A stretch of DNA of 63,525 bases, filler included, from Kipferlia bialata (taxonomy: Eukaryota), in assembly GCA_003568945.1 (NCBI GenBank). It is 4 parts of 4 records of this genome, joined end to end, with 100 filler letters (N's around TTAATTAATTAA, not from the genome) between each part and the next. Parts side by side here need not be neighbours in the genome. Positions count along the whole stretch, not along the records: positions 24,585 to 49,051 come from BDIP01000227.1; positions 49,152 to 61,410 come from BDIP01000248.1; 2 more parts are not named here. One strand, 5' to 3'. The notes below the pieces were generated by a model that was not told where the DNA came from, made no database searches, and saw only the letters and a program-made list of their open reading frames with translations. Of this stretch, positions 24,485-62,466 are shown piece after piece (within the stretch, counting starts at the first letter, position 1; every line of letters begins with the position of its first letter). The position numbers and the translations under genes are program-made.

Positions 24485-24584
24485 NNNNNNNNNNNNNNNN
24501 NNNNNNNNNNNNNNNNNNNNNNNNNNNNTTAATTAATTAANNNNNNNNNNNNNNNNNNNNNNNNNNNNNNNNNNNNNNNNNNNN
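24485..24584. other. Artificial contig-join spacer (N44-TTAATTAATTAA-N44)
   Basis: Exactly 100 nt with a six-frame stop linker; identical spacers at 49052 and 61411. Genes are cut at both sides. Confidence 0.97.
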
Positions 24585-24643: not shown

Positions 24644-24703
24644 CTCTCCCTTCCTCTCTCTCCCCCCCCTCTCTTACCTTCCAGAGGGTTCCTTTGACAT
24701 CTG

Positions 24704-24747
<44 letters not shown>

Positions 24748-24755
24748 CCTTCCAG

Positions 24756-26411
24756 AGGGTTCCTTCGACATATCCCGGTGCCCACTGGTCAAGGGGGCCA
24801 TAGAAGTGCAGCTGATGAACGGTATGTGCATATATGTATATATATATATATGGTAAACATATTGAGAGAAGACATAGAGTATAGTAAATATAGTATGTAT
24901 GTCGGTGCCCACTGGTCAAGGGGGCCATAGAAGTGCAGCTGATGAACGGTGAGTGGATGTGAGTATATGTATGTATATGTTGTATGGTACAGTGTATAGT
25001 ATACTTAGTCCTCTAACCCCCAGGTGTGGACTACCAGCCCACCCACATCATCCATATATATCTCTCTCTCTCTCTCTCCCCTCTGTGATATATGTATATA
25101 CATATATATGCTCTTACACTCAGGTGTGGACTACCAGCCCACCCACATCATCCAGCTCTCTCTCTCTCTCCCCCCCTATGATATATGTATGTACATATAC
25201 TATGTATGCTCTTACACTCAGGTGTGGACTACCAGCCCACCCACATCATCCAGGTGGAGGCAGAGGACGAGGCAGAGAAGGTATGGATAGATGTGTATAT
25301 TGTGGTATCTATGTACTCCTCTCTATTGAGTAGGTGTCGATCTACAGTAACATATGTCACTATCAAGACGCTAAGACCCCTGCCGTTGTGAGGGTATTCA
25401 CCCTACATATACTGTACATGGAAGTATATATTTATATATACTCTCTGACCCCCAGGAGGCCGAGGCCCCTGCTGCCACTGGGGCCATGTATGAGGTATGA
25501 TGCATGTGCATATATATAGATAGACAGATAGATATCTACGGGTGTATATATCATAGTAAAGAGAGGGAGAGAGATGCTGCCACTGGGGCCATGTATGAGG
25601 TATGGATGTGTATATGTATATACATACAGAGAGAGAGAGAGAGTGTGTGTGTGTGTGTGTATTCTATGTTTAAAGAGACGGACCACCCTAACCCCTAGAT
25701 ATCCTTTATATATGTAATCCTCTATATATATATATATTTGTATACACTCACACTAGATCTCCCCTGTCAAGGCCCTGTCCGGTTCCTCCCACGAGAGTGA
25801 GGGTGAGAGAGACATCCCAGTGTACCCAGGCGCATCCAGGTATCATGCACCTCTCTCCCTCTATATATATATATATGCTTAGACTACATCCAGGAATATA
25901 TTACTCTAGTGGTATGTATATTTGTTTTGTATCATGTCAAGTGTACCCAGGCGCATCAAGGTATCAGACACAGCTCTCTCCCTCTGTCTGTACAATCATA
26001 TTTGTGTACATGTATATATATATATATACAGTAAATCATCCTATACTGGTATCCGCATAAATGTTGTGACACTCCTAACCCCAGCACCCCCTCTGTGAGC
26101 AGGGACAGGAAGAGAGAGACCGAGAGGGAGAGAGAGAGAGAGTCCAACTCCGAGGCACTCCTAGGCCTACTGGCACAGCTGGATGAGACACAGCCTGACA
26201 CGGTGGAGGAGGTATGGATATAGTCTCTACACCTCTCTCTCTCCCCCCCATGAAATACATATATATGTGGGTATAAACCCTCTATAACGCCAGGCTGAGG
26301 TTGTTGTGGCTCTCTACACCTATTTCTCTCTCTCCCTTCCTACATAGTGATTGTATACATATATGTAACCTCAGGCCGAAGTGGTTGAGGTACCTCCGAG
26401 CTGTCCAAGTG

Positions 26412-26457
<46 letters not shown>

Positions 26458-26828
26458 CCCAAGGCCGAAGTTGTTGAGGCTCTCTACACCTCTCTCTCTC
26501 TCCCTTGCTATATGTGTGTGTGTTTAACACCGGGCCGAAGTAATAGAGATCCTCTACACCTCCGAGCTGTCTAAGGGTATCTCTCTCTCTCTCTCTCTCT
26601 CTCTTATCCCTAGGCTGAGGTTGTCGAGGCCCTCTACACCTCCGAGCTGTCCAAACGTATCTCTCTCTCTCTCTCTCTCTCTCTTACCCCTAGGCCGAAG
26701 TGGTAGAGATCCTCTACACCTCCGAGCTGTCCAAGTGTGGTCTGGACCCTGAGGCAGTCACACCCAAGGACGGGTTCAGACAGTGGCTGCTGGAGGACTT
26801 TAGGTCATGTATATATAGAGAGTGTATG

Positions 26829-26865
<37 letters not shown>

Positions 26866-27130
26866 CGAGAGGTCTGGACCCAGAGGCAGTCACACCCAAG
26901 GACGGGTTCAGACAGTGGCTGCTCGAGGACTTCAGGTGTATATATGGAGTATATATGTGTATATACATATCTCCGTCTCTCAGTCTCTATATGTACCCCC
27001 CTAATCCCTAGGACCCGTGCCCAGTCCATCACATCCTCTCTCTCTCCCTATATCTCTCTCTCCCTCTTTATATATCTACATATATGAACATAATTCTTAC
27101 CCCTAGGACCCGTGCCCAGTCCATCACTTG

Positions 27131-27172
<42 letters not shown>

Positions 27173-28226
27173 CCTCTATACGTGTCTAACCCCTAGGACC
27201 CGAGCCCAGTCCATCACTTCTCTCTCTCTGTATATATATATATATGTGTGTGTGTGTGTATGTATTAGTCTCTCTAACCCCTAGGACCCGTGCCCAGTCC
27301 ATCACTGGTGAGCCCATGGCAGGGGAGGGCACACTGCTGGGGAGGGTGGGGTCCCTACTGAAGGCTAGGCATACTAGGTATGGAGAGAATACACTTGGGT
27401 ATAAATATATATGATTAATATGAGAGGGGAGGGGAGGGGGGGCCTACTGAAGGCCAGGCATACTAGGTAGGGTGTACTATTATGTATATGGTCATATAGT
27501 GGGCCTAATCCCCAGCGCCCGTTCTTAGTATGTGACATGTCTCCCTCCCTCTCTCTCTCTAGCAGTCTCTCTCCCTAATTCCACCTCACCCCCAGTGCCT
27601 GTTCTGAGATTGTCAGGCGCAGGATGAGGGCTCTGGCCATGTCTCAGGCCGCTAGCAAGGTGTGTATGTATATACAACGTCTGGATATATATGTGTGTTT
27701 AGCTACGGTCACTAACAACCCAGGCCCCCGAGAGAGAGACCCCCTCTCGTGACAGACAGGCCATGGAGCACGCAGCGGCATGGGAGAGGGGCAGGAGGTA
27801 TGGATTGAAATAATACATACACACCTAGTGTATATATGTATGTGCGTATATGTCTGTACATCTGACCCCCTAGGGCCCCTGACACTGTGAAGCGTGAGAG
27901 GACTGTGTCTCTGCCCAGACGCGCCCCCAAGACATCATCTGCATCGGCCAGCAGTGCCAGTGACTACATGGCAAGAATTAATGGTGAGTATACAATATAC
28001 ATTACATATATATGTATATATGTGGGTAAGGTGTATCTATATATGCCTGCACCCTCTGCCAGCAGTGCCAGTGACTACATGGCCAGGGTCAACGGTACGA
28101 AGCAATGGTATTGAGTATTATGTATCTGAGTTCAATTATGTAGCGTGTCTCTCAATACATCCCTCACCCCCAGCCCTGCAGGACCAGTTCAGGGCAGGGA
28201 AGCAGGGAGTGACCAACGGGAAGTAG
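24756..28226 (+). CDS. Hypothetical protein, 3' part of a multi-exon gene (gene B)
   Basis: GT-AG exons join in frame: EGSFDISRCPLVKGAIEVQLMN / GVDYQPTHIIQVEAEDEAEK / ... / AEVVEILYTSELSKCGLDPEAVTPKDGFRQWLLEDF / RTRAQSITGEPMAGE... / ALQDQFRAGKQGVTNGK* (TAG 28224-28226). No family recognised. Confidence 0.75.
26294..27310 (+). repeat. Exon-echo arrays around two exons of gene B
   Basis: Five partial copies of acceptor+GCCGAAGTGGTAGAG... precede exon 26694-26803, and one 65-nt 3'-half+donor copy follows it (26871-26935). Three CCCTAG|GACCCGTGCCCAGTCCATCAC copies precede exon 27285. Confidence 0.95.
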
Positions 28227-28231
28227 GGAGA

Positions 28232-28280
<49 letters not shown>

Positions 28281-41307: not shown

Positions 41308-41884
41308 TTAGTTGCTGGATATACACTCACTTCTCTCAGCCCGAGGCACACTCTCCAGAGGTTGACTCTCCAGAACCTCTCTCACAATGTTCTCTCTCTC
41401 TCTCGCATCAGCCTCTAAATTGTCTAGTCTCTCCTTTGCAAGGAGAGGGGGTAGGGGGGCATACACCTGGAAGTGAGTGCCTAAGACTGTAAAAGTATCA
41501 TTGAACCTTACTTCCCTACCACGTCTCTTCGATGATAACACATTTGTGACAATGTATTTATGCATTAACCCTTCCCTCTAATGTGTAATACATGCTTATC
41601 TTTCTCATTGAACACCACTAACCTTCCACATAATCAGAAGAGGGGTATAGAATACTGATACTGATACTGAACCTCGCTTACCTTCCACAGCATCAGAAGA
41701 AGGGACGTGACTGCCGCCCCACAGTCACCAACAGTGCCAGCATAGAAGAGACTCGATATGTCGCTGGGGTAACGGTGGGTAGATGGGTGTGTGTGTGAGA
41801 GAGAGGGGGGGGGAGAGAGAGAGGTAGTGGGTGCCAGCATAGAAGAGGCTCGATATGTCGCTAGGGTGAGAGAAAGAGAGAAAT

Positions 41885-41922
<38 letters not shown>

Positions 41923-43763
41923 TGAGTGAGGTGATTGGGAGGTATCCTAGCAGCAGAACAGTGATAGAACATTGACTCGAAGAGGATACAGACTGGCTAA
42001 GAGGGGGAAGGAGAGAGAGAGACATTGAGCTTGGGTACCCACCCTGTAACAGCTAGTGTATATATATATACCCACCCTGCAAGAGTTGAAGAGAGAAAGA
42101 GAGAGAGAGAGAGAGAGAGCTGTACCCACCCTGTGACAGCTGGTAGTAGGAACATGGCTGGATATATATGTAGTCAATGTGTATATATATAGTATATATA
42201 CTTATATATAGTATATACCCACCCTGTGAGAGCTGGTAGGAGGAACATGGCTGGAAATATATGTAGTCAATATATACATATATATAGATAGTATATATAG
42301 ATAGTATATATATATATAGTATATATACATATACCCACCCTGTCACAGCCGGTAGGAACATGGCTGGATATATATGAAGTCAATACATATATACATATAG
42401 AGTATATAGATAGTGTATATATATGGTATATATTTATATATATATATAGTGTATACCCACCCTGCCACAGCCGGTAGTAGGAACATGGCTGGAAATATAT
42501 GTAGTCAATATATATAAATATATAGTATATATATTCATATATAGTATATACCCACCCTGTAACAGCTGGTAGGAGGAACATGGCTGGAAATATTTGTAGT
42601 CAATATGTATATATATATAGAGAGTATATAGATAGTGTATATATATAGTATATAGATAGTGTATATATATAGTATATATATATATATATATAGTATATAC
42701 CCACCCTGACAGAGCTGGTAGAAGGAACATGGCTGGCATGATGATAAGGTTCTGGAGGGTCAGAGAGAGAGAGAGAGAGAGAGAGAGACGGCATGATGAT
42801 GAGGTTCTGGAGGGTCAGATAGATAGCACCAGAGACCCATGTACACATTGCACTCTAGAAGTGATCCCACCTGTCTGCAAATGGCGACAGCTGTGGCCAA
42901 AAGGGCCTGAGACTGCGCCTGGTGTCAGTATCATATATATATCATATCAGTTCGATACATAGTACAGTGCATAATATAACGTCGCGTGCAATACCTGGAA
43001 AGTGGCAGCAGCTATGTAGGGAAGGCAGACAAGCACGAAGCCAAAGCACCAGTGCCTGGGGTCAGATGAAGGGATCTATTCAGTATCAGACTGATACTAT
43101 CAGTATCAATATCAGGAAGAAATCAATTGCTCCTCCTGGACACTTAATCTCTACCTGGGGTCAGATGAGGGGGGCGCAGTGTTGGGTAGAGATATAGAAC
43201 AAGACTATGACAAATCGTGTAGAAGACAAATCGTGTAATGTGTCCAAACCTGAGTACCGGCACTCCGATCTCTGTCAGAGCTGGGTCGTCTCCGCCTAGG
43301 ATACGCACAATAGCCTCTGGTGCTAGGAGGGTGCCTGGAGTGAGACGAAAGGTACCGGTACATATATATATATTCATTCTTCTTCTTTTCATAAGCACTA
43401 TACACTTATTAGTATACGGACAATGGTATCCGGTGCTAGGAGGGTGCCTGGAGGGAGACCAAGAATGCCTGTATATATATATATGTATACTTATATGTAC
43501 TATTATACTAGTATACGGACAATGGCCTCAGGTGCTAGGATGAGACCAAGACTGCCAGTACATAATAATTCTCATCTCTTAATATGATATTTAGTCACTA
43601 TCTACTAGTGGTACCATCCATCGAGATTGTATGGTGTGATACCTCTCTACACATGAATAATCCCTCCATATATACACAATTGTTTATACATATATATATA
43701 TGTATATGTTGTATGTATCCACTTACCTAGCTAGCCCAGCCCCGCTATGTTCATATATTCAAT

Positions 43764-43798
<35 letters not shown>

Positions 43799-45110
43799 TC
43801 ATACCCAGCCAGCCCAGCCCCGCTATGGCACAGCAGAAGAGGAGGCCATACATGACAAGAATCAAAATGTGTGGTCAATATATACAAAGGTATGTATATG
43901 TATATATATATACTAACCTAGCCATCCCAGCCCCGCTATGGCACAGCAGAAGAGGAGGCCATACATGACGACTGCACTGTATCTGTGGTACTTGGCAGCA
44001 CCTGCCGGTTAGCGCTAGAAGTAGCTAGTAGCGTATTTATAGTCTATGTATATATACGACTCGTCGCCTCGTACACCATATTATCATGTATGTACTTAGC
44101 AGCGCCTGCCAGTTAGCTCTAGTTGCTATAGCAGCTGAAAGGAGGCGTGGTCGACAGTGTCACAAAGAGTCAGAAAAGGTCAGAATACGTGTGCGTACCG
44201 AGGTTGTAACTAGCCACGGGTAGGTACCCAGCTGTGAGACCCATAATCGGGAGCACAAGGAGAGCTAGATACCTGTATGTGAGATATATATATACATATA
44301 TGGATAGTACCTATACACTTTTACTATATATACATCCACTGTGAGACCCATAATCGGGAGCACAAGCAGGGCAAGGTATCTATATGTAAGAGCGATATAC
44401 GGAGTGACAAACAGAATAGAACTGGTAGGGGCAGGAGCACTGGAGTGAGACCCATGATGGGGAGGACTAGCAGGGCTAGATACCTGGTGGGTCAGTACAT
44501 ATGTATATATATATATATATACAAATGTTAGGGGCAGGTAGCACTAAAGATATAGGAGTGAGAGAGCTCCTCACATACATATATAGATACATGCCTCTGG
44601 AGGATGCCTGAGAACACCACAATGAGGGTGTCCACCTCATCCTCGGGGGCATAGTACTTGATCAGCGCGTTGCCTGGGTAAGTATACATCGTGAATAGAT
44701 GTACAGAGTAAGTGTATAGTATCAATTAGGAGACGTATTATGATGCAGAAACTATACAGGTACTTGATCAGGGCATTCTACTGCGTAAGTGGACAATACA
44801 GTATAGTAAACACAGTGTAGTATAGATGTTATATAGCAATGATCTACGCAGTACTTGTATATATATATATACTGATACACACTATTATAGGTAGAGAGAG
44901 AGAGAGAGTACCTATCACCACTGGCAGCATCTGGGAGGACTGCTGGCCAAACTGGGGGAACCCTGGGGGGTTAGTGAATACGCAGATATGTATATTATGT
45001 AATATAATATATATTGTATATTAGATTCCTAATTGAAACCAAATCGAGGCAAACCCACTTGATGATCCTTACCTAGCCCCAGGAACCGTCCCATGACTCT
45101 GATGTCCAAA

Positions 45111-45144
<34 letters not shown>

Positions 45145-45366
45145 CATAACATATATATAAGAATATATATCATATATATACTGGTTCCTACCTAGCCCCT
45201 GGAACCGTCCCATGACTCTGATGTCCAAAACACACATATGTGTATATATATATATATGTATATCATAACATATATATAAGAATATATATCATATATATAC
45301 TGGTGTGTACCTAGCCCCAGGAACCGGCCCATGACTCTGATGTCCATCTTTCTATCGAACCTGGGA

Positions 45367-45413
<47 letters not shown>

Positions 45414-48400
45414 CTCAAGTCCTCATGGCAGAATAGGACAAACAGGTTACAAATATACAAATATACACCCCACTTTGGTCTTATCGAGAGAGTCATATTG
45501 TACCTGACTCTCAGAGGTTACTTAATATAATACATGTAATTACTATATATTGAATATACTGATTATCGATAATATATGAAATATATGTAATTACCTGACT
45601 CTCACAGGTTCCGTCTCTCTGTGGAGGTACCACACTGCCCAGATGGCTGGGGGTAAGAGTTACACAGTATATACAATTACTAAACAATTACTAAACAATC
45701 TAAACAATGTTTACAATCTAAACAATTACTCGATGTATACCTGGAGCCCCCTGTGCAATGACTGTGCTGATTGCTGCCCCCCTAATTAAAGAATCTAAAC
45801 ACCCCTAATGCCCATATCAACGCCAAAGATGAGGATGGGGTCGATGACCATGTTGAGACAGGCAGAGGCTGGGGTCAGCGGGCATCATTCATATATATAT
45901 ATATATATATATGAATGGTATGGTATACACTACATATGATATTACATAGTAGTATTATGAATAGTATGGAATCATGAGGGGGCATCAGGGGAGATATGAA
46001 CAAAGACCCGAAATATATATAATAACTACATTATATATTTATACATTGTCATATTACTACACATTTGATTATGGACGAGAGAGATACATAATGTGTCATA
46101 GATTGGTAGCCCTACCTACCACCATCCGCATTGACAGTCTCTCGTGACCAAGAGCCCGCAGGACATGGGGCATGGACTGGCCGAATAGATAGCTTGGGGT
46201 GGGTGTATTCGTACATACTCATATATATACATATAGATATCGGATGGAGAGGGACTGCCCAAAGAGAGATCTTGAGGGTGAGAGACGACATAGGTACATG
46301 TCTATGGGGCATGCTGGCTCGCTAAGTTTATCTAAACACCTGCAGACAAACACTGTGAGTATCTGGCCATATGGCAAATATGTTCAGAGGCACACAATGT
46401 ACACACAATATATATGTATATATATCAATACCTGCACACAAACACTGTGAGTATCTGGCCATACTCCACAGCACCAGGCAGGATGGCATCGGTGGCACCT
46501 GGGGTGAGCTACATACATGTACTAAATTATACAATACAATACACTATATATATATATATACATACATATGCACCAGGCAGGATGGCATCGGTGGCACCTG
46601 GGGTGAGACATAATTACATGTATAATAGCATAATAATAGAATAATAGAATAATGTATATATGTGTGTGTATGCATGTACCAGGCAGGATGGCATCGGTGG
46701 CACCTGGCAGAGTGAGTGTACTTAATACTAAGTAAGTATTAATATACATAAATATATATATATATCACATTCATATGCTATGAGAGGGAGAAACATATCG
46801 GATGGCACCTGGGGAGTGAGGTGGAGAGAGAGAGAGGAAAGATGGAATAAAGGGAGAGGGACAGAAGATGATGCTATCAGAGGCAACACCAGAAAGGAGA
46901 GTGGGTGAGAGACAGACAGAGACGGAGGCCCAATACCGAACAGTATCAATATATACTATAAATATGTGTATATATATTGTATACCGACTCATTGTATAGT
47001 ACATACCGAACAGTCTGAGGAATGTGCTGAACCACCGCATCAACAATTATATACTATATATTTATACTCTGCATACTATATATATACTATACACTGTATA
47101 TACTGTATATATACTAATTTTGTACAGACTATACTTACCGAACAGTCTGAGGAATGTGCTGAACCAGGGCATCAACAACTATATACTATATATAATAGTA
47201 TACACTAATATATACTCTGTATACTATATATATACATTATACTGGATATACTGGATTTGTACTACTGAATATATACTACACATACCGAACAGTCTGAGGA
47301 ACGTGCTGAACCACAGCATCAACAAATATATACTATATATATATACTCTGCATACTATATATATACTATACACTGTATATACTGTATATATACTTATTTT
47401 GTATAGACTATACTTACCGAACAGTCTGAGGAATGTGCTGAACCAGGGCATCAGCACCACTGGGACTATGACAGACACAGCGCCACAGGCCACGAGGAGG
47501 TTTAGCAAGACATACTGGAGTTATTACCAACACATGTTTAATACATATATATATATAATACTATATCTATGACAGAGACAGCGCCACAGGCCACGAGGAG
47601 GTTTAGCAAGACATACTGGGGTCAATATATAACTGTGTTTAATATATAAATGTATGTATAGAATATATATGTGCTCAATAAATAATTGGGTCACTCTCAC
47701 TATACATAGAGATATACACAAGAACATACTGGGGACAGTTGTGTTCCTCTCAATTCTACACTATCACATCAACACAATAGTGGGTGGGACTGTTATGCGA
47801 CTCTTTTTCTGTCTCTCTCTCTCTCTCAGGATACCTCAGCTCTCTTGACATCATTTGCCCCCAGTGCCCTGGCCATCATGGCAGCAGCCCCACTGCCAAA
47901 CACATTGCCTGATGATAAGGGTGTNNNNNNNNNNNNNNNCAGCCCCACTGCCAAACACATTGCCTGATGATAAGGGTGTAGAGGGAGAGAGAGAGGGAAT
48001 CTATGTTTTTGGCGGCTATCAAGGCTAGCCCCATAATTGTAATATATGAGTAATATATGAGTAAGGACGAGACACTGTGGTGGGGGAAAGAGATAGAGAG
48101 AGAGAGAGAAGGAGAAGCAGGAACTCAAACATGACTGTACACACGTCTATGCTACTGTTACAAGATACCCACGTATGGCTGCGTAGAGAGATTGAAACAT
48201 GACTGTATACGATTATCTATACGATTACAATATATATATACATATACCCACCTATTGCTGCGTAGAGAGTCACCTCAACAGGGAGGAACACAGCTGGAGT
48301 GAGAGGAAGAGAGAGAGAGAATGAGAGAGAGAGAGAGAGGGAGAGAGAGAGAGAGTCACCTCTACAGGGAGGAACACAGCTGGGGGTGAGAATAAATGGT

Positions 48401-48781
48401 GTATTCAATGAAATCTATATATGTCTGTACATATATAACCTGGTAGGAACACAGCTGGAGTGTGAGGGAGAGAGAAAGAGAAAGAGAAAGGCAGGGGAGA
48501 ACTGGGTAAATGGGACCCAGCTCAGGAGGAGAGAGGAAGAGAGAGAGAGAGAGAGAGAGAGTCGAAGACCAAATTGGGGCAGAGTGGAAAGGAGGAGACA
48601 TAATATGAAGAGAGACACACATACTTATTCGCTATATATAATATGAATTAAAATACAAATAGATATACCTAGACAGAAAGCAAAAGAGAGAGAGTAGAAA
48701 TATCGTTATACCTAGAGCCCCGACCCCATATGTCCCGACCCCCTGTGCTACATAGATGGAGTCAACCAGGTTGTACAGGGC
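41308..48781 (-). CDS. MATE family multidrug efflux transporter (MepA-like); 5' end missing; possible frame-disrupting insertion at 45787-45809
   Basis: Spliced peptides ALYNLVDSIYVAQGVGTYGVGAL, GNVFGSGAAAMMARALGA, GATDAILPGAVEYGQIL, VLRALGHERLSMRMVVG, SACLNMVIDPILIFGVDMGIR[GAAISTVIAQ], GYLPVASYNLGAAKYHR and LFYAGTVGDCGAAV match MATE transmembrane motifs. Stop at 41308-41310. Confidence 0.85.
42036..42740 (-). repeat. Array of about 7 exon 3'-end+donor echoes (PAMFLLPA[LV][ST]GW|GT) in a MATE intron
   Basis: ACCCACCCTG...GGAACATGGCTGG (plus strand) recurs about every 110-120 nt from 42124 to 42735, with degenerate copies at 42037 and 42070. Confidence 0.92.
47002..47455 (-). repeat. Higher-order (about 279-nt, ABAB) duplication of exon-end echoes in a MATE intron
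   Basis: CATACCGAACAGTCTGAGG at 47002 and 47281 and CTTACCGAACAGTCTGAGG at ~47133 and ~47413, with near-identical TA-rich spacers. Confidence 0.9.
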
Positions 48782-48996
48782 CTGTGGTAAAAGGGTGTAG
48801 AGGGAGACAGAGAGATACATAGATGGAGTCAACGAGGTTGTACAAGGCCTGTGGTTATAAGGTGTTGAGGGAGAGAGAGATAGAGGACATGAAAGTGCGC
48901 ATTACAACCAGGGGTGGGAGGGAGAGAGGTTAGTCCAGATACACAGATAAGGAGTGGCGATGAGGAGAGGGGGGAGGGTGAGAGAGAGACTGAGAC

Positions 48997-49051
<55 letters not shown>

Positions 49052-49151
49052 NNNNNNNNNNNNNNNNNNNNNNNNNNNNNNNNNNNNNNNNNNNNTTAAT
49101 TAATTAANNNNNNNNNNNNNNNNNNNNNNNNNNNNNNNNNNNNNNNNNNNN
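49052..49151. other. Artificial contig-join spacer
   Basis: N44-TTAATTAATTAA-N44. Confidence 0.97.
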
Positions 49152-49326
49152 GGGGGGGGTGATTATGGTGGGAGAAACCCCCCCCCCCCCCCCCCCCCAG
49201 TCTCCCACTGAGGTAATACCTCTCTCCCTGCTCATTTACTTAGGGGGTGATCGTCTAAGTACATATATGTGCATATCTTAGGACACTTATATTATACCCA
49301 GGGTCGATAGAGGTACAGGATGGTGA

Positions 49327-49363
<37 letters not shown>

Positions 49364-49465
49364 TCCCTCTCCCCTCTCTCTTATACTCTAGGGCTGACCT
49401 AGATGTGACTGGGGTGCAGGAGGGTGTCCTCTCTCTCTCTCTCTCCCCCCCCCTCTTACACCCAG

Positions 49466-52400
49466 GGCTGACCTAGATGTGACTGGGGTGCAGGAGGGTG
49501 TCTGGCTGGCAGGGCAGGTGCCCAAGCTCACAGAGCAGGCAGCGCCCACGGACACAGAGGTATGAATATCACTGTGTACATATTCCCATCTTCCCTATGT
49601 CCAACCCCCCCCCCCCCCCCCTTAGTGTCAGTATACCAATGAATCTCCACATATACCACCCCCAGGACCGGTATACCAAGGACAGACTCTCTTACGCTAT
49701 ATCACATTAGTATATCAATGTCTATCAGTATACACCAACCCCCAGGACCGGTATGCCCAGGACAGACTCCCTTACCCTATATATCATATCAATATACCAA
49801 TATCATAATATAGTATATCAATGTCTATCAGTATATACCAACCCCAGGACCGCTATGCCAAGGACAGACTCCCTTACCCCCCTCCCCAGTATCAATATCA
49901 ATATACCGATATCATATTAGTGTATCAATGTCTATCAGTATCCATACCACCCCCAGGACCGGTATGCCCAGGACAGGGCCGCCGTGCTGTCTGCCACATC
50001 CAAGGGGGGCAAGGCACTCGTGGAGAGAGAGCTCTTCCTGCGTAACAGGGGGACAGGCAGCAGGGTGGTGCAGGTATGTGATATACACGTGTCACTCCCT
50101 CTAGGACTACATATATATCTATTTGGGTGATACAGGTGGCATGCCCGTGTCTCTCTCTCTGTCTTGCTTCTTATATATATACCCTTCCATGCCTCACTCC
50201 AGAACCGGCCGAAGCCTGTGTACAACGGCCACATCCCCCTCCTCCCCGATGATGTCAGTGACCTCTCCAGTGACAGTGAGGAGGAACCCACCCCAGGGTC
50301 ACTCAGGACCCAGACTAGGTGGCATATGTGTGCACTGATCTCTACTAATATTCACTGATGTGCCGTGTGTATGTATACTCTCTTTGTGTTGCACCCCCCT
50401 GTCTGACCCCTCAGGTACAGAATGTCAGAGAGAAAGAGACAGAGGAACGTGGCCTTCATGAGGGGGGTCAGTCGGAAGAGACGAACGGTCACTCAGGTAC
50501 GTATACTGTCTTCCTCTATCTCTCTATCTGTATCCATCCCCCTCACCCCCTCCCTTATTCTTAGGAAACCGCCACAATTGTCGAGCCCAAGTTTGCCTCC
50601 ACCCTCCCCCGCTCTCCTGCCTTCTCCATAGGCCTGAGACGCACCCTAGACACCAGTCCCCATGGGAGTAGGGCAGGGTCTAGGCCTGGGTCTAGGTCTA
50701 GGTCCAGAGGGGGGGGATCCCCTACCAGGCGCCGCCCCTCCACTGCGGGTGCAAGAGGGAAGAGAGGGGGGAGGGAGAGTGGGTCTGAGATGACAAGGGG
50801 AGATACCCCGGATATCCCCAGCAGACCAGAGACAGCCCCTGCCAATGAGGGTAGAGACACTGGTGATGCAGATACAGTGACTGATGCTGACCACGCTCTG
50901 TCTAGGGCAGCCCAGCTAGTCGGGTCAGGGTCCCTTACCCCCCCGGAGGATATGGCGGGAGGGGCAGTGTCCATGGGTGGAGGGAGGGAGAGGCAGCGGC
51001 CTAGGACGGGCACCCCTGCCTCCAGGGCCAGGCCTGCCTCTGCGGCCGCTGCCCCCACCAAGACACCCCGGCCTGAGTCAGCGGCAGAGAGAAGGGCCAG
51101 GCTAAGACCACCCTCCAACAGAGATGCCTCCCGGTTTGGTATTAGCACGTCCTTTGGCAGAGACTCGCCCAAGGGTAAGAAGCCTAAGCAGGGGGCGAAG
51201 AGGCCCCAGTCAAGTCTTGCTGTCATGAGTGGGATAGGTGTGAGTGGCAGACTGAGTGGTGGTGGGGGTGGGATGACCCAGAGACCTGCCTCCTCTATGT
51301 CGAAGCAGAGAGAGAGAGGGAGAGAGAGGGAGGGGCAGAAGGAAGGGGGTAGAGGGTCGGCATTGGGTACTGACCTCGGTGCATACCTGCAGGGATACCG
51401 CCAGAGGTCTGCCTCTGCGTGTAGGGCGTCTAGGGAGGCAGAGGCAGAGAGGAAGGAGAGGCAGAATGTGTTCCCCACCCGCCCCTCCTCTGGGTATGGG
51501 ATGGCCCGCATCCTAGCAGCTGTACACTCTGCCAGGACTGGGGGGGACAGGCCGAAGAACAGACAGCCCCTGGGGGTGAGGCCTGCTACGGCAGAGGGGG
51601 TGAGGGAGGTAGAGAGAGAGAGGGAGAGAGAGACAAAGGCTAGACCTAGCACAGCGAGCCAGAGGGGGAGGCAGAGGAAGACGCTCACATACACCCAGGT
51701 AGGGAGTTATATATTTGTATAGTATGTAGCTCTTTCCGTCTTTCAATGATATATCATATGTATAGTTAACGCTAGGACGGCCGGCTGGTTGACAACCGCC
51801 CTGGGACAGCTGCACCTATCCTCAGAGGAGGAGAGAGAAAGGGACCCTCCACCTCCACCTCTGTACATAGTGCCAAGGGTAGGAGGGGGGTGGCCCTGGC
51901 TAGGGAGAGGGTGGGGAGTGCTGCTGCCAGGAGGCGCCCCCTCTCCACGCCCAGAACCTCTGGCGCTGCTACTACTGCTATGGACACTAAGACTAGTTGT
52001 ACTAAGGGCAGTAGAGGTGCAGTGAGTGCCAGCAGGGGTGGGTCACTGGCGAGGGGGGAGAATGCCCGGCCTGCCACTGCTGCCTCAACCAAGAGGCCGC
52101 CCCTCCCAGGCATCAAGGGTACTAAGGGTAGTAAGGCTGCTAAGGCTGCTAAGGGAGAGGACACTGGGAAGAGACGAGCACCCCCTGCAGATGGGTGGGC
52201 AGTGAGGGAGGCACTAGTACAGGAGTTCCTGTCAGACCAGTCCATGCCCCCAGCGGAGGTGGGTCCATGTACATATTTATTTTTCTCTTTTTATATATAC
52301 TTTGCATATGTATACTGTACTACCCCCAGGTGCGCCACTTCCCAGACTATGTTCCATATGTATATACTGTATACTATATACGTATAATACACCATGTATG

Positions 52401-53368
52401 ATACACTCACTACAGGTGCGCCACTTCACCCAGACCATGTTCCATATATATACTGTATATATATCTATATTACTATATACTATATATTCTCATCCCAGGT
52501 CCGCCACTTCACCCAGACCATGTTCCAGATGGCAGGGACTGTCAGACTGGCACCCAGGCCCAAGAGCAAGAAGCCGCAGGTATGGGGAGTGGTAGACGTG
52601 TTTACGATGTGTCAGTGTCGTATATATATATATATATATATATCACAAGAGCAAGAAGGTGACGGTGGGGAGTGTGTAGAGTACATGTCTATAATGTTTC
52701 GCGAGGCCTATGTATGTCTGGTGTCTCTATGCATGTCCCACCCCTCACCCCCAGGGCATGGCCTCTCAGACAGCCAGGGAGGCCATGGTGTACGACAGGA
52801 ATGGGGGCATACCCTCTTCCTTCGTGGTCCCCCCTGCCTCTAGGGGTGGTGTTAGGGATGACCCCTCTGCCGACAGAGACAAGGGCAAGACTGAGCTGAT
52901 GGCATGGGACAAGACACACGTCTCTACACGATACGCAGGTACACGAGTTGTCACACTGTCTCCTCTTCGTATCTTCCCCCTCACCCCCCAGGCACCTTCC
53001 GCGTATCCTCTGCCACTGCGTCTAGACTGGATATGGAGGACCTCAGAGGCACCGACGTCGGACCCAAGGACACGAGGAGTGCAGAGGACTACCTTGGGAA
53101 GAACGTGGCTGTGCCATCCCTGGGGCCACCCTCGGGCTACAAGGTATAGTGTGTGTATACAACACTATACGTGTAAATATGTATACTGTTGTGGGAGTAC
53201 ACGCTACTAGAACCATCCCTCTCCTCACCCTAGGGCCGGAACACGAGTGTGCGAGGGGTCAATGCCAGTAGACAGGGGGGCAGGGCCACCCCGAGCATCA
53301 TAGACGCCTCTGTCGTGCCCAGTATCACGAGGAGGCCAGCCATCTACCTGCAGCAGGTGTACCAGTAG
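49466..53368 (+). CDS. Hypothetical basic low-complexity protein with many RP[AS][ST]A motifs, 3' part (gene F)
   Basis: In-frame exons ADLDVTGVQEGVWLAGQVPK... / DRYAQDRAAVLS... / large exons ~50565-51698 and ~51776-52258 / ...RRPAIYLQQVYQ* (TAG 53366-53368). Confidence 0.75.
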
Positions 53369-61410: not shown

Positions 61411-61510
61411 NNNNNNNNNNNNNNNNNNNNNNNNNNNNNNNNNNNNNNNNNNNNTTAATTAATTAANNNNNNNNNNNNNNNNNNNNNNNNNNNNNNNNNN
61501 NNNNNNNNNN
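61411..61510. other. Artificial contig-join spacer
   Basis: N44-TTAATTAATTAA-N44, flanked by poly-C. Confidence 0.97.
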
Positions 61511-61585: not shown

Positions 61586-62466
61586 GCCTGATCCTTGACA
61601 TTGTCGCTGACATCCGTGCCATGAACGGCCAGGCTGTGTACTCCCGCAAGAACGGAATCGTGATCCTCGGTGCGTCTCTATCCTATATACGTATCAATCC
61701 ATGGCAGGGTTGTACCCTCTCTCTCCTGGTACCTATTGTATTAGCACTACTCCCTTACGCTCAGGAGGTGGCCTTGTCAAGCACCACATCTGCAACGCCA
61801 ACCTCTTCTCTGCCACCGGAGCCAACTTTGCAGTCTACGTCAACACTGGTGCGTCTGTCTCTCTCTCTCTCTCTCTACATATATGTCTCTCTCTATCTTA
61901 GTGTCTCTCTCACACTAGGTATGGAGTTCGACGGCAGTGATGCCGGTGCCTCTCCCGAGGAGGCCAAGTCCTGGGGCAAGATTGCAGGTACCCCTATGCC
62001 ACACACACACACACTATATGAGTAAGCTATACCCCCCCTTCCCCTCTCTCTCTCTCACCCCCTCAGTTGATGCCAATGCCGTCAAGGTGTCTGCCGATGC
62101 CACCCTCGTGTTCCCCCTCATTGTCCATGCCACATTCAGGCAGTACTACAAGGTGCATAGTGTTCATATCTTTGGATAGTATAGCCACTTCAGAGTACAC
62201 ACCTTCTTCTACACCTTCTACTACACCTTCTTCTGTGTTGATTATGGTCCATTGATCCTAACCCCCAGGCCGACCCCCAGTACTGGGACAACAAGACCTA
62301 CGAGGACACACACATCAAGTGAGTATAGATGTCCCTATTGTAGCACCATGTGTTCCTATGCAATATCCATGCCCGGTACATTTTCTCCTCTCACCCCAGG
62401 TACGTCAACGCCATGCAGTCTGCCGATGACGCCCAGGCCGAGATGGGACACACCCTCATCAACTAG
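61586..62466 (+). CDS. DHPS: Deoxyhypusine synthase, 3' part
   Basis: Spliced GLILDIVADIRAMN...GIVIL/GGGLVKHHICNANLF...AVYVNT/GMEFDGSDAGASPEEAKSWGKI...KVSADATLVFPLIV; catalytic SWGK lysine present. Stop 62464-62466. Confidence 0.95.

What the first reader, a model, noticed from the sequence alone, without database searches (positions are those of the whole stretch)
24685..52660. Pervasive 'exon echoes': splice-site-spanning partial exon copies that diverge almost only at synonymous sites
Seen: in genes B, C, D, E (MATE) and F most exons are flanked by 1-6 direct partial copies with strict polarity. Branch point+AG+exon 5' part lies upstream; exon 3' part+GT lies downstream. Substitutions between echo and intact exon are strongly synonymous: 26871-26935 vs 26739-26803, 3 of 3; 32897-32928 vs 32775-32806, 5 of 5; 24685 vs 24756, 2 of 2; 30516 vs 30631, ATT/ATC, GCA/GCG, CCG/CCA; 31869 vs 32018, GTG/GTA, CAT/CAC. 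Inference: a dead intronic copy should mutate at all codon positions, giving roughly 40% synonymous differences. So these copies spent much of their history under coding constraint. Candidate mechanisms: (a) unequal crossover between highly divergent alleles stacking an allelic series in tandem; (b) frequent repeat contraction or gene conversion cycling echoes back into the functional exon, a cassette reservoir; (c) use of echoes in mRNA. I do not know of a description of this system.
Basis: partly seen in the sequence, partly recalled or inferred. Interest (0 to 1): 0.92.

Follow-up and report, generated by a model that had tools for sequence, protein, structure and literature searches.

The report
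Stacked exon-edge copies archiving alleles
In five neighbouring genes of the free-living protist Kipferlia bialata, about two thirds of the exons are flanked by stacked partial copies of their own edges; these are skipped in the two introns where RNA could be checked and differ from the real exon mostly at silent positions, likely because they are pieces of other working alleles left behind by misaligned recombination.

Summary
The echoes are real. 42 of 65 exons in five Kipferlia bialata genes carry tandem partial copies that span a splice site (87 scored). They differ from the exon at 25% of 4-fold but 3.3% of 0-fold sites, where a dead copy should show about 13%. Gene D is an exception (1 silent, 11 replacement changes).

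On the one stretch laid, echoes sit in DNA contigs at ordinary depth, and RNA contigs splice past them.

The structure is known: amphioxus 'mirages', human CBS 844ins68. The scan had noted single cases in sea urchin and annelid. What I did not find in print is the density and the silent-site bias.

Most likely mechanism: a short tandem duplication fixes a junction. Unequal exchange with a divergent homolog, resolved inside the exon stub, then swaps in another allele's splice site and exon edge. Divergence peaking at the splice-site end fits this.

Weak points: it needs allelic 4-fold distances of 0.24-0.30, above published records; no second allele was seen in this strain; no other strain was available.

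The parts
24756..28226 (+). Gene B, 11 exons, 5' end beyond the piece; 16 scored echoes (21 silent, 8 replacement)
24685..24700 (+). Upstream echo of B exon 1 (branch motif, AG, 16 nt of exon)
26375..26654 (+). Array of 4 scored upstream echoes of B exon 6 (26694-26803); one has a 7-nt deletion, one has lost its AG
26871..26935 (+). Downstream echo of B exon 6, 65 nt, 3 of 3 differences silent
27012..27218 (+). Three upstream echoes of B exon 7 with a shared junction
30098..37166 (-). Gene C (= P0003, KIPB_001560, hypothetical protein), 20 exons; 32 scored echoes (76 silent, 11 replacement)
30291..30554 (-). Three downstream echoes of C exon 19; 17 silent, 1 replacement; three tri-allelic sites
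31489..31535 (-). Upstream echo of C exon 16: six consecutive codons changed silently, including a Ser AGC/TCC switch, then nearly identical toward the junction
32898..32928 (-). Upstream echo of C exon 13, 4 of 4 silent
35975..36107 (-). Two downstream echoes of C exon 3; one carries an in-frame 15-nt insertion
36658..37041 (-). Four downstream echoes of C exon 1; 18 silent, 2 replacement, one 3-nt deletion; 3 site pairs fail the four-gamete test
37905..40702 (+). Gene D (= P0001, KIPB_001561, kelch repeats), 5 exons; its 5 scored echoes show no silent bias (1 silent, 11 replacement)
41311..48781 (-). Gene E, MATE-like transporter (motifs recalled; Pfam MatE only E=0.18 on one exon), 19 exons, 5' end beyond the piece; 28 scored echoes (46 silent, 23 replacement)
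41467..41681 (-). Last MATE intron with a downstream echo; spliced out at the predicted sites in an RNA contig
   Evidence: table 5
41831..41860 (-). Upstream echo of MATE exon 41763-41682; the RNA contig carries the exon's letter, not the echo's
42130..42587 (-). Five downstream echoes of MATE exon 42751-42705, all starting at exon base 16; each a different variant, one with a 3-nt deletion
44339..44483 (-). Two upstream echoes of MATE exon 44272-44199; 11 of 11 differences silent
47007..47321 (-). Three downstream echoes of MATE exon 47514-47418
49466..53368 (+). Gene F, 10 exons on a separate piece; 6 scored echoes at exons 1, 2 and 7
49666..49867 (+). Three upstream echoes of F exon 2 with a shared junction
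52330..52444 (+). Two upstream echoes of F exon 7, one with a 2-nt deletion

Best explanation
The echoes are tandem copies of exon-intron boundaries ('mirages') that are spliced out where tested, and their exon-derived parts are most likely fragments of other functional alleles captured by unequal recombination between highly divergent homologs. Step 1 (inferred): slippage or break repair at intronic microsatellites makes a 50-150 bp tandem duplication with one end in an exon and one in an intron. Duplications are harmless because a whole exon remains; the matching deletions are lethal. Step 2 (inferred): the stub misaligns with the functional exon of a divergent homolog. Exchange resolves inside the exon stub, the only well-conserved stretch. 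One product gains an echo whose splice site and exon edge come from the other allele while the junction end stays resident-like. The reciprocal product puts an echo's edge back into service, where selection tests it. Step 3 (inferred): arrays turn over fast relative to allele age, so echoes show allelic, mostly silent divergence plus a little later decay. Shown: layout, coding constraint, shared junctions, the divergence gradient, normal depth and skipping on one stretch. Not shown: the donor alleles, sex, or copy-number change.
For: Constraint: 107/421 4-fold vs 47/1406 0-fold sites differ; the dead-copy expectation of 12.7% at 0-fold sites is rejected, nominal p 1e-34. Distinct variants fall on codon positions 3/1/2 as 118/30/13. 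By array, 33 have silent>replacement, 8 the reverse, 15 tie, of 56. Echo-vs-echo: 74 silent and 36 replacement codons of 461. Replacements are conservative (mean BLOSUM62 +0.28 vs -0.51 expected). AG/GT are kept in 79 of 85 anchored echoes vs 76% expected. Echoes of one array mostly share their junction within a few bases. Third-position divergence falls from the splice site inward, 27%, 18%, 11%, 11%; within-echo permutation p 0.0006-0.03. Silent divergence is overdispersed: 20 of 87 echoes are identical to the exon, while the 21 most diverged average pS 0.44 at pN 0.027. Solving for two unknowns puts 89-99% of the 4-fold distance under constraint. One DNA contig at depth 430 spans 39790-41772 with no difference; echo-bearing contigs have depth 342 and 381; unrelated contigs 462-484. 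Context: crossovers in hyperdiverse Schizophyllum fall preferentially in exons (PMC4209137, abstract). Fornicates lack Rad51A and have two Dmc1 paralogs; metamonads lack Ku (PMC8516963, passages). That Dmc1 tolerates mismatches is recalled. In the amphioxus BflGb6 alignment, read by eye, haplotype-1 units D3-D5 differ from their exon at six silent sites and carry the haplotype-2 letter at 3 of the 5 sites where the two alleles differ.
Against: The model needs allelic 4-fold distances of 0.24-0.30, above the 0.20 reported for the most diverse species (PMC4576712, abstract). No other letters and no second-allele contig appeared on 39790-42173 at 85% likeness; contigs drop variants, but a strongly divergent homolog might have shown. 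Sex has not been observed in Metamonada (PMC8516963). The gradient is solid for downstream echoes (mean position 0.35-0.39) but weak for upstream ones (0.40-0.54), and falls to p 0.05-0.06 with one echo per array and 10 junction bases excluded. Replacements are no nearer the junction than silent changes, and divergence does not rise with distance from the exon. Only 1 of 20 arrays fails the four-gamete test. Gene D shows no bias. The amphioxus pattern could also be retained ancestral states. Nominal p values treat related copies as independent.
Confidence: 0.6

Rival explanations
1. The donors were long-separated homeologs or old asexual homologs (hybrid or Meselson-type divergence). Pieces were captured during mitotic break repair and then made homozygous by loss of heterozygosity, with no sexual allele pool.
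For: This explains distances above any measured within-species diversity and the lack of a second allele on the stretch laid. The species paper reports two k-mer peaks, suggesting a diploid (PMC5874029).
Against: Up to six distinct versions of one exon edge, with tri-allelic sites, need serial captures over a long time. Old captures should then have decayed at 0-fold sites, yet pN stays 0.02-0.04 across divergence classes.
Confidence: 0.17
2. Cassette cycling within one haplotype: contraction or conversion returns echoes to the functional exon so often that replacement changes in them are purged.
For: The reciprocal product of unequal exchange does this. CBS 844ins68 is proposed to template changes in its exon by conversion (PMC2630376, passages). 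20 of 87 echoes are identical to their exon.
Against: Exchange fast enough to purge replacements would also erase silent differences. Exchange slow enough to leave 25% at 4-fold sites leaves a ratio near 0.5 (my argument; dead-copy row), against 0.11-0.13 observed.
Confidence: 0.1
3. Assembly artefact: alleles or strains in the culture were stacked in tandem by the assembler.
For: Silent bias is what stacked alleles would show. One echo-like duplicate is a plain scaffold overlap across a 15-N gap. A 56-nt exact duplicate at 30888-30998 may be another. The reads come from one sample, possibly the source of the window, and only 2.4 kb was laid.
Against: A separately assembled contig runs through echo junctions at depth 430, and echo contigs have depth 342-381, not a fraction of it. 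The run holds 92% of sampled 31-mers of 41300-47900. Six versions exceed two haplotypes. Stub-to-microsatellite junctions do not exist in an ordinary allele.
Confidence: 0.07
4. Echoes are used in mRNA as alternative exon parts, so selection acts on them directly.
For: Splice signals are retained (79 of 85 dinucleotides; branch motif in 36 of 46). One low-depth RNA contig (3.5) runs from inside D exon 3 into an echo region. 8 of 87 echoes have AG and GT in register for re-splicing.
Against: Only 2 of 48 upstream stubs end at GT/GC and 1 of 39 downstream stubs begins after AG; 8 of 87 is about chance by my estimate. 0 of 41 upstream and 4 of 38 downstream echoes give an open frame. The MATE RNA contig (depth 77) and the D contig use the true sites and the exon letters. 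Some echoes carry a stop or a frameshift.
Confidence: 0.06

Closest known systems
Amphioxus 'mirages' (Adh3, globins BflGb6/BflGb9, PGBD5; PMC3087553 passages and supplement 4, PMC3902484 passages; the original Adh paper could not be read)
   Same: Minisatellite-like tandem duplications of either exon-intron boundary; units of tens to about 160 bp; most keep AG/GT; splicing undisturbed; unequal crossing-over proposed.
   Different: Reported at a few animal loci, against 42 of 65 exons here in a metamonad. The globin and PGBD5 main texts have no occurrence of 'synonymous' or 'silent'. Units here differ strongly from one another.
Human CBS c.844_845ins68 (PMC2630376, passages)
   Same: A 68-bp duplication of an intron/exon junction; the splice site next to the whole exon is used and the upstream stub is removed; conversion between stub and exon is proposed.
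   Different: One copy at one locus, and the stub carries a harmful replacement rather than silent allelic differences.
Human F7 IVS7 37-bp VNTR (PMC1557585, abstract)
   Same: Array of repeated donors downstream of the true donor that stay silent; the first donor is chosen.
   Different: The abstract describes the cryptic sites as identical in sequence; no coding-constraint signal is described.
[quoted passage not shown]
   Same: Short intragenic tandem duplications that include splice signals.
   Different: There the duplicate becomes a new intron/exon structure; here nearly all stubs lack the second splice site.
Tandem duplicated, mutually exclusive exons (recalled)
   Same: Tandem exon-derived copies with a silent-site bias.
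   Different: Those are whole exons with both splice sites and are translated; these are one-ended stubs.

Membership tests
Mirage (tandem exon-intron boundary repeat) | Direct tandem units that span a splice site, at 5' or 3' boundaries | tested here: met
   48 upstream and 39 downstream echoes
Mirage (tandem exon-intron boundary repeat) | Unit length of tens to about 160 bp | tested here: met
   Tandem periods of 55-147 bp at these arrays
Mirage (tandem exon-intron boundary repeat) | Many but not all units keep AG/GT | tested here: met
   79 of 85 anchored echoes
Mirage (tandem exon-intron boundary repeat) | Regular splicing is not disturbed | tested here: met
   Two introns only: MATE joint 41464-41680 and D exon 4 to 40041, from RNA contigs; one odd low-depth contig
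Mirage (tandem exon-intron boundary repeat) | Copy number differs between haplotypes or cells | not testable with these tools
   One sample only; no relatives found
Mirage (tandem exon-intron boundary repeat) | Concerted evolution within a cluster | tested here: inconclusive
   Junctions are shared and some arrays are uniform, but 110 of 461 echo-echo codon pairs differ
Mutually exclusive tandem exons | Each copy has both an acceptor and a donor and an open frame | tested here: not met
   2 of 48 and 1 of 39 have the second site; 0 of 41 and 4 of 38 open in frame
Mutually exclusive tandem exons | Copies appear in mRNA | tested here: not met
   Not seen in the two introns covered; contigs drop rare forms
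Rogers-type intron gain | AG and GT in register so that the span between copies splices out | tested here: not met
   8 of 87, about what chance gives by my estimate

The most novel reading that the evidence does not exclude
Kipferlia introns hold an archive of functional alleles: each array records several divergent haplotypes that once met in one nucleus. A single genome would then reveal outcrossing and record-level diversity (4-fold distance 0.24-0.30) in a metamonad, a group where sex has not been seen, with Dmc1-only recombination acting on 20-50 bp exon stubs.
Probability: 0.4. Interest if true: 0.85.

Novelty: new variant of a known kind. Interest (0 to 1): 0.62.

Why it matters
If echoes are captured alleles, one assembly yields population data: allele ages, diversity and evidence of inter-homolog exchange in fornicates, where sex is inferred only from gene lists. 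The same test (0-fold vs 4-fold divergence, gradient from the splice site) can be run on amphioxus and sea-urchin mirages and might explain their origin. The arrays also show that a reduced spliceosome (87 of 174 proteins, PMC6679479) passes over intact-looking decoy sites where tested, which makes these genes natural reporters for splice-site choice. For annotation, such stubs can mislead gene models and variant calls.

Tried and rejected
No whole genome was held, so there is no genome-wide count. Two metagenome scans, with gene D's last exon and gene F exon 6, found no relative. A search with the MATE C-terminal exon found no protein, and Pfam on 16 single exons gave only a weak MatE hit; the MATE label and the frames of B, E and F therefore rest on open frames, recalled motifs and one RNA joint. 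No holder is on record as RNA; run X2 is treated as RNA because it shows a spliced joint. Reads were laid on 39790-42173 only; the arrays richest in silent changes have no direct read test.

Ideas tested and dropped:
- Replacements pile up near the junction: no difference from silent changes.
- Echoes farther from the exon are older: no trend.
- Flank divergence tracks silent divergence: none on 20-nt ungapped flanks; gapped spacer divergence is 0.17 with about 3 gaps per pair.
- (GA)n/(CT)n pairing loops echoes out: GA tracts lie near only 6 of 61 true donors.
- In-frame indels as evidence: 6 of 10 are multiples of three, but at least two of these are doubtful alignments, so I do not lean on them.
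- Polarity as evidence of design: it follows from geometry.

The original mirage paper (Canestro 2002) could not be read and may discuss silent differences; of the globin paper's supplements only file 4 was read.
Full report
Setting. The window is four pieces joined by 100-nt linkers (24485-24584, 49052-49151, 61411-61510), with one 15-N gap at 47925-47939. Proteins encoded in piece 24585-49051 are labelled Kipferlia bialata by their sources (P0001; P0003) and lie on a 24,467-nt contig, the length of that piece. The pieces are therefore likely separate scaffolds, and gene F need not neighbour gene E. The species is a free-living fornicate with 124,912 GT-AG introns and two k-mer peaks suggesting diploidy (PMC5874029, parts 1-3 of 6 read); those parts do not mention such repeats.

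Gene models. I set exons by hand for B, C, D, E and F. Frames are open over 292, 567, 358 and 859 codons for B, C, D and F. For E they are open only if exon 7 is read across a 23-nt interruption. Gene C equals P0003 at 565 of 565 residues from the first Met, and all 240 residues of P0001 match D. Two joints are confirmed by RNA contigs.

The observation. Each exon was aligned to its two flanking introns. 91 hits reached score 26, which 0.4% of 3,700 non-cognate pairs reach. Four were dropped and 87 kept; junction ends were trimmed to five matches and splice ends extended to the boundary. 42 of 65 exons have an echo. Introns with echoes have median length 303 nt (n=38) against 95 (n=18) without. 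The feature is regional: 43 of 129 candidate acceptors in piece 2 have an upstream copy, against 1 of 173 in piece 1. Microsatellites cover 11.2% and 0.5% of these pieces; piece 4 has 6.5% but 0 of 12. Junctions usually abut a simple repeat: CT after 27 of 48 upstream stubs, AT or GA before 25 of 39 downstream stubs.

Coding constraint. Over 2,765 aligned sites there are 148 silent and 56 replacement differences, pN/pS 0.13-0.16. Distinct variants number 115 and 46, on codon positions 3, 1, 2 as 118, 30, 13. A third-position change counted as silent if silent alone; by whole codons the count is 127 silent and 46 replacement of 857. With six junction bases excluded, 107 of 421 4-fold sites and 47 of 1,406 0-fold sites differ; a dead copy predicts half the 4-fold rate, 12.7%. 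Variants private to one echo are 29 silent and 18 replacement. At array level, 33 of 56 have more silent than replacement changes, 8 the reverse, 15 tie. Replacements are conservative, and splice dinucleotides survive in 79 of 85. Some decay exists: one stop, and indels of 7, 1, 2 and 4 nt. Gene D, 1 silent and 11 replacement, shows that the pipeline does not create the bias, and is an exception to the claim.

Is the layout real? Two runs of one sample hold the DNA; X1 holds 92% of sampled words of 41300-47900. On 39790-42173, one X1 contig of 2,420 nt at depth 430 covers 39790-41772 without a difference, through the echoes of D's last exon and the downstream echo of MATE exon 41763-41682. The upstream echo of that exon appears as its own contig at depth 342 (my reading of record 7, which has two differences from the exon). 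41932-42083, with two short remnants of the next array, has depth 381; unrelated contigs have 462-484. This argues against stacked haplotypes, but it is one sample, contigs rather than reads, and it does not cover the arrays with most silent changes. No other letters were listed, so this strain shows no divergent homolog here.

Is it used? An X2 contig of 1,866 nt (depth 77) skips the last MATE intron at the predicted sites and carries the exon's letters. D exon 4 joins the true acceptor at depth 5.65. One contig at depth 3.5 joins the inside of D exon 3 to 39840, a few bases before an echo's AG, without canonical ends. Use of an echo acceptor would give an open frame in 0 of 41 cases, of an echo donor in 4 of 38. 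Stubs almost never have the second splice site.

Mechanism. Echoes of one side mostly share their junction, so they descend from one duplication, yet they differ silently from one another (74 silent, 36 replacement of 461 codons). Their coding parts must have been refreshed from translated sequence. Misaligned exchange between a stub and a homolog's whole exon does this. It replaces the splice-site end of the stub with the other allele and leaves the junction end, which predicts more divergence at the splice-site end. Third positions differ at 27%, 18%, 11% and 11% in bins from the splice site. Within echoes the mean position of differences is 0.39-0.43 against 0.5 (p 0.0006-0.03); the effect is clear downstream, weak upstream, and marginal under the strictest setting. 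Corrected distances of 0.31 and 0.034 imply donor distances of 0.24-0.30 and later decay of 0.003-0.034 per site. This exceeds the 0.20 of Schizophyllum commune (PMC4576712, abstract), so crossing between divergent lineages or locally high mutation would be needed; this is the main weakness. In S. commune crossovers favour exons (PMC4209137, abstract). Fornicates lack Rad51A and keep two Dmc1 paralogs, metamonads lack Ku, and meiotic genes are conserved though sex has not been observed (PMC8516963, passages).

What is known. I checked this in PMC3087553 (passages; supplement 4) and PMC3902484 (passages): same anatomy, splicing undisturbed, 6 versus 3 units between haplotypes. Neither main text contains 'synonymous' or 'silent'. 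By eye, BflGb6 units D3-D5 of haplotype 1 differ from their exon at six silent sites, three of them in the haplotype-2 state, while D1, D2 and D6 include replacements. This fits allele capture but also retained ancestral states. CBS 844ins68 and the F7 VNTR are single human cases. Searches for a silent-site bias in such repeats, or for them in Kipferlia, listed nothing relevant (listings and abstract starts only). The original Adh mirage paper could not be read.

Verdict. A real feature of a known structural kind, here at unusual density in a new lineage and with a quantified coding-constraint signal that I did not find described. Allele capture is the best explanation at 0.6. A second isolate would decide it. 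Interest 0.62.

Noticed in passing
window 45780-45802 (- strand, MATE exon 7): The exon is interrupted by 23 nt that resemble the next intron, with an 8-nt duplication. Splicing it as a 21-nt GT-AG intron would shift the frame. It could be a broken allele, a collapsed echo or an assembly error; the gene's 3' end is expressed.
   Followed up: partly
window 35530-35562 (- strand, gene C): An upstream stub that has both AG and an in-phase GT and could be a whole 33-nt extra exon. The preceding exon (35682-35629) looks like an older copy of the same exon start. The NCBI protein does not include the stub.
   Followed up: partly
window 44594-44595 (- strand): MATE intron that needs a GC donor to keep the frame.
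   Followed up: no
window 39840-39967: Low-depth RNA contig joins the inside of D exon 3 to a point a few bases before an echo's AG, with non-canonical ends; template switch or mis-splicing.
   Followed up: no
window 47885-47979: Identical 40-nt sequence on both sides of the 15-N gap: an unmerged scaffold overlap, not an echo.
   Followed up: yes
window 30888-30998: Exact 56-nt tandem duplicate including part of a GA tract; very recent or an assembly loop.
   Followed up: no
window 1-24484: One very long, many-exon gene (dynein heavy chain-like by recalled impression, not tested) with short introns, almost no microsatellites and no echoes; a natural control.
   Followed up: partly
window 61586-62466: Deoxyhypusine synthase-like gene (recalled motifs) with microsatellite-rich introns but no echoes, so simple repeats alone do not suffice.
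   Followed up: partly
window 40190-40549 (gene D last exon): The NCBI model removes 118 codons here as an intron, but the frame is open and an RNA contig covers 40139-40549 without a gap.
   Followed up: partly
window 37280-37382: Long G runs just upstream of gene C's first modelled exon; sequence quality is doubtful.
   Followed up: no
PMC3087553 supplement 4: Amphioxus BflGb6 mirages D3-D5 seem to show the same silent bias and share letters with the other haplotype's exon; the paper's main text does not use the words synonymous or silent.
   Followed up: partly
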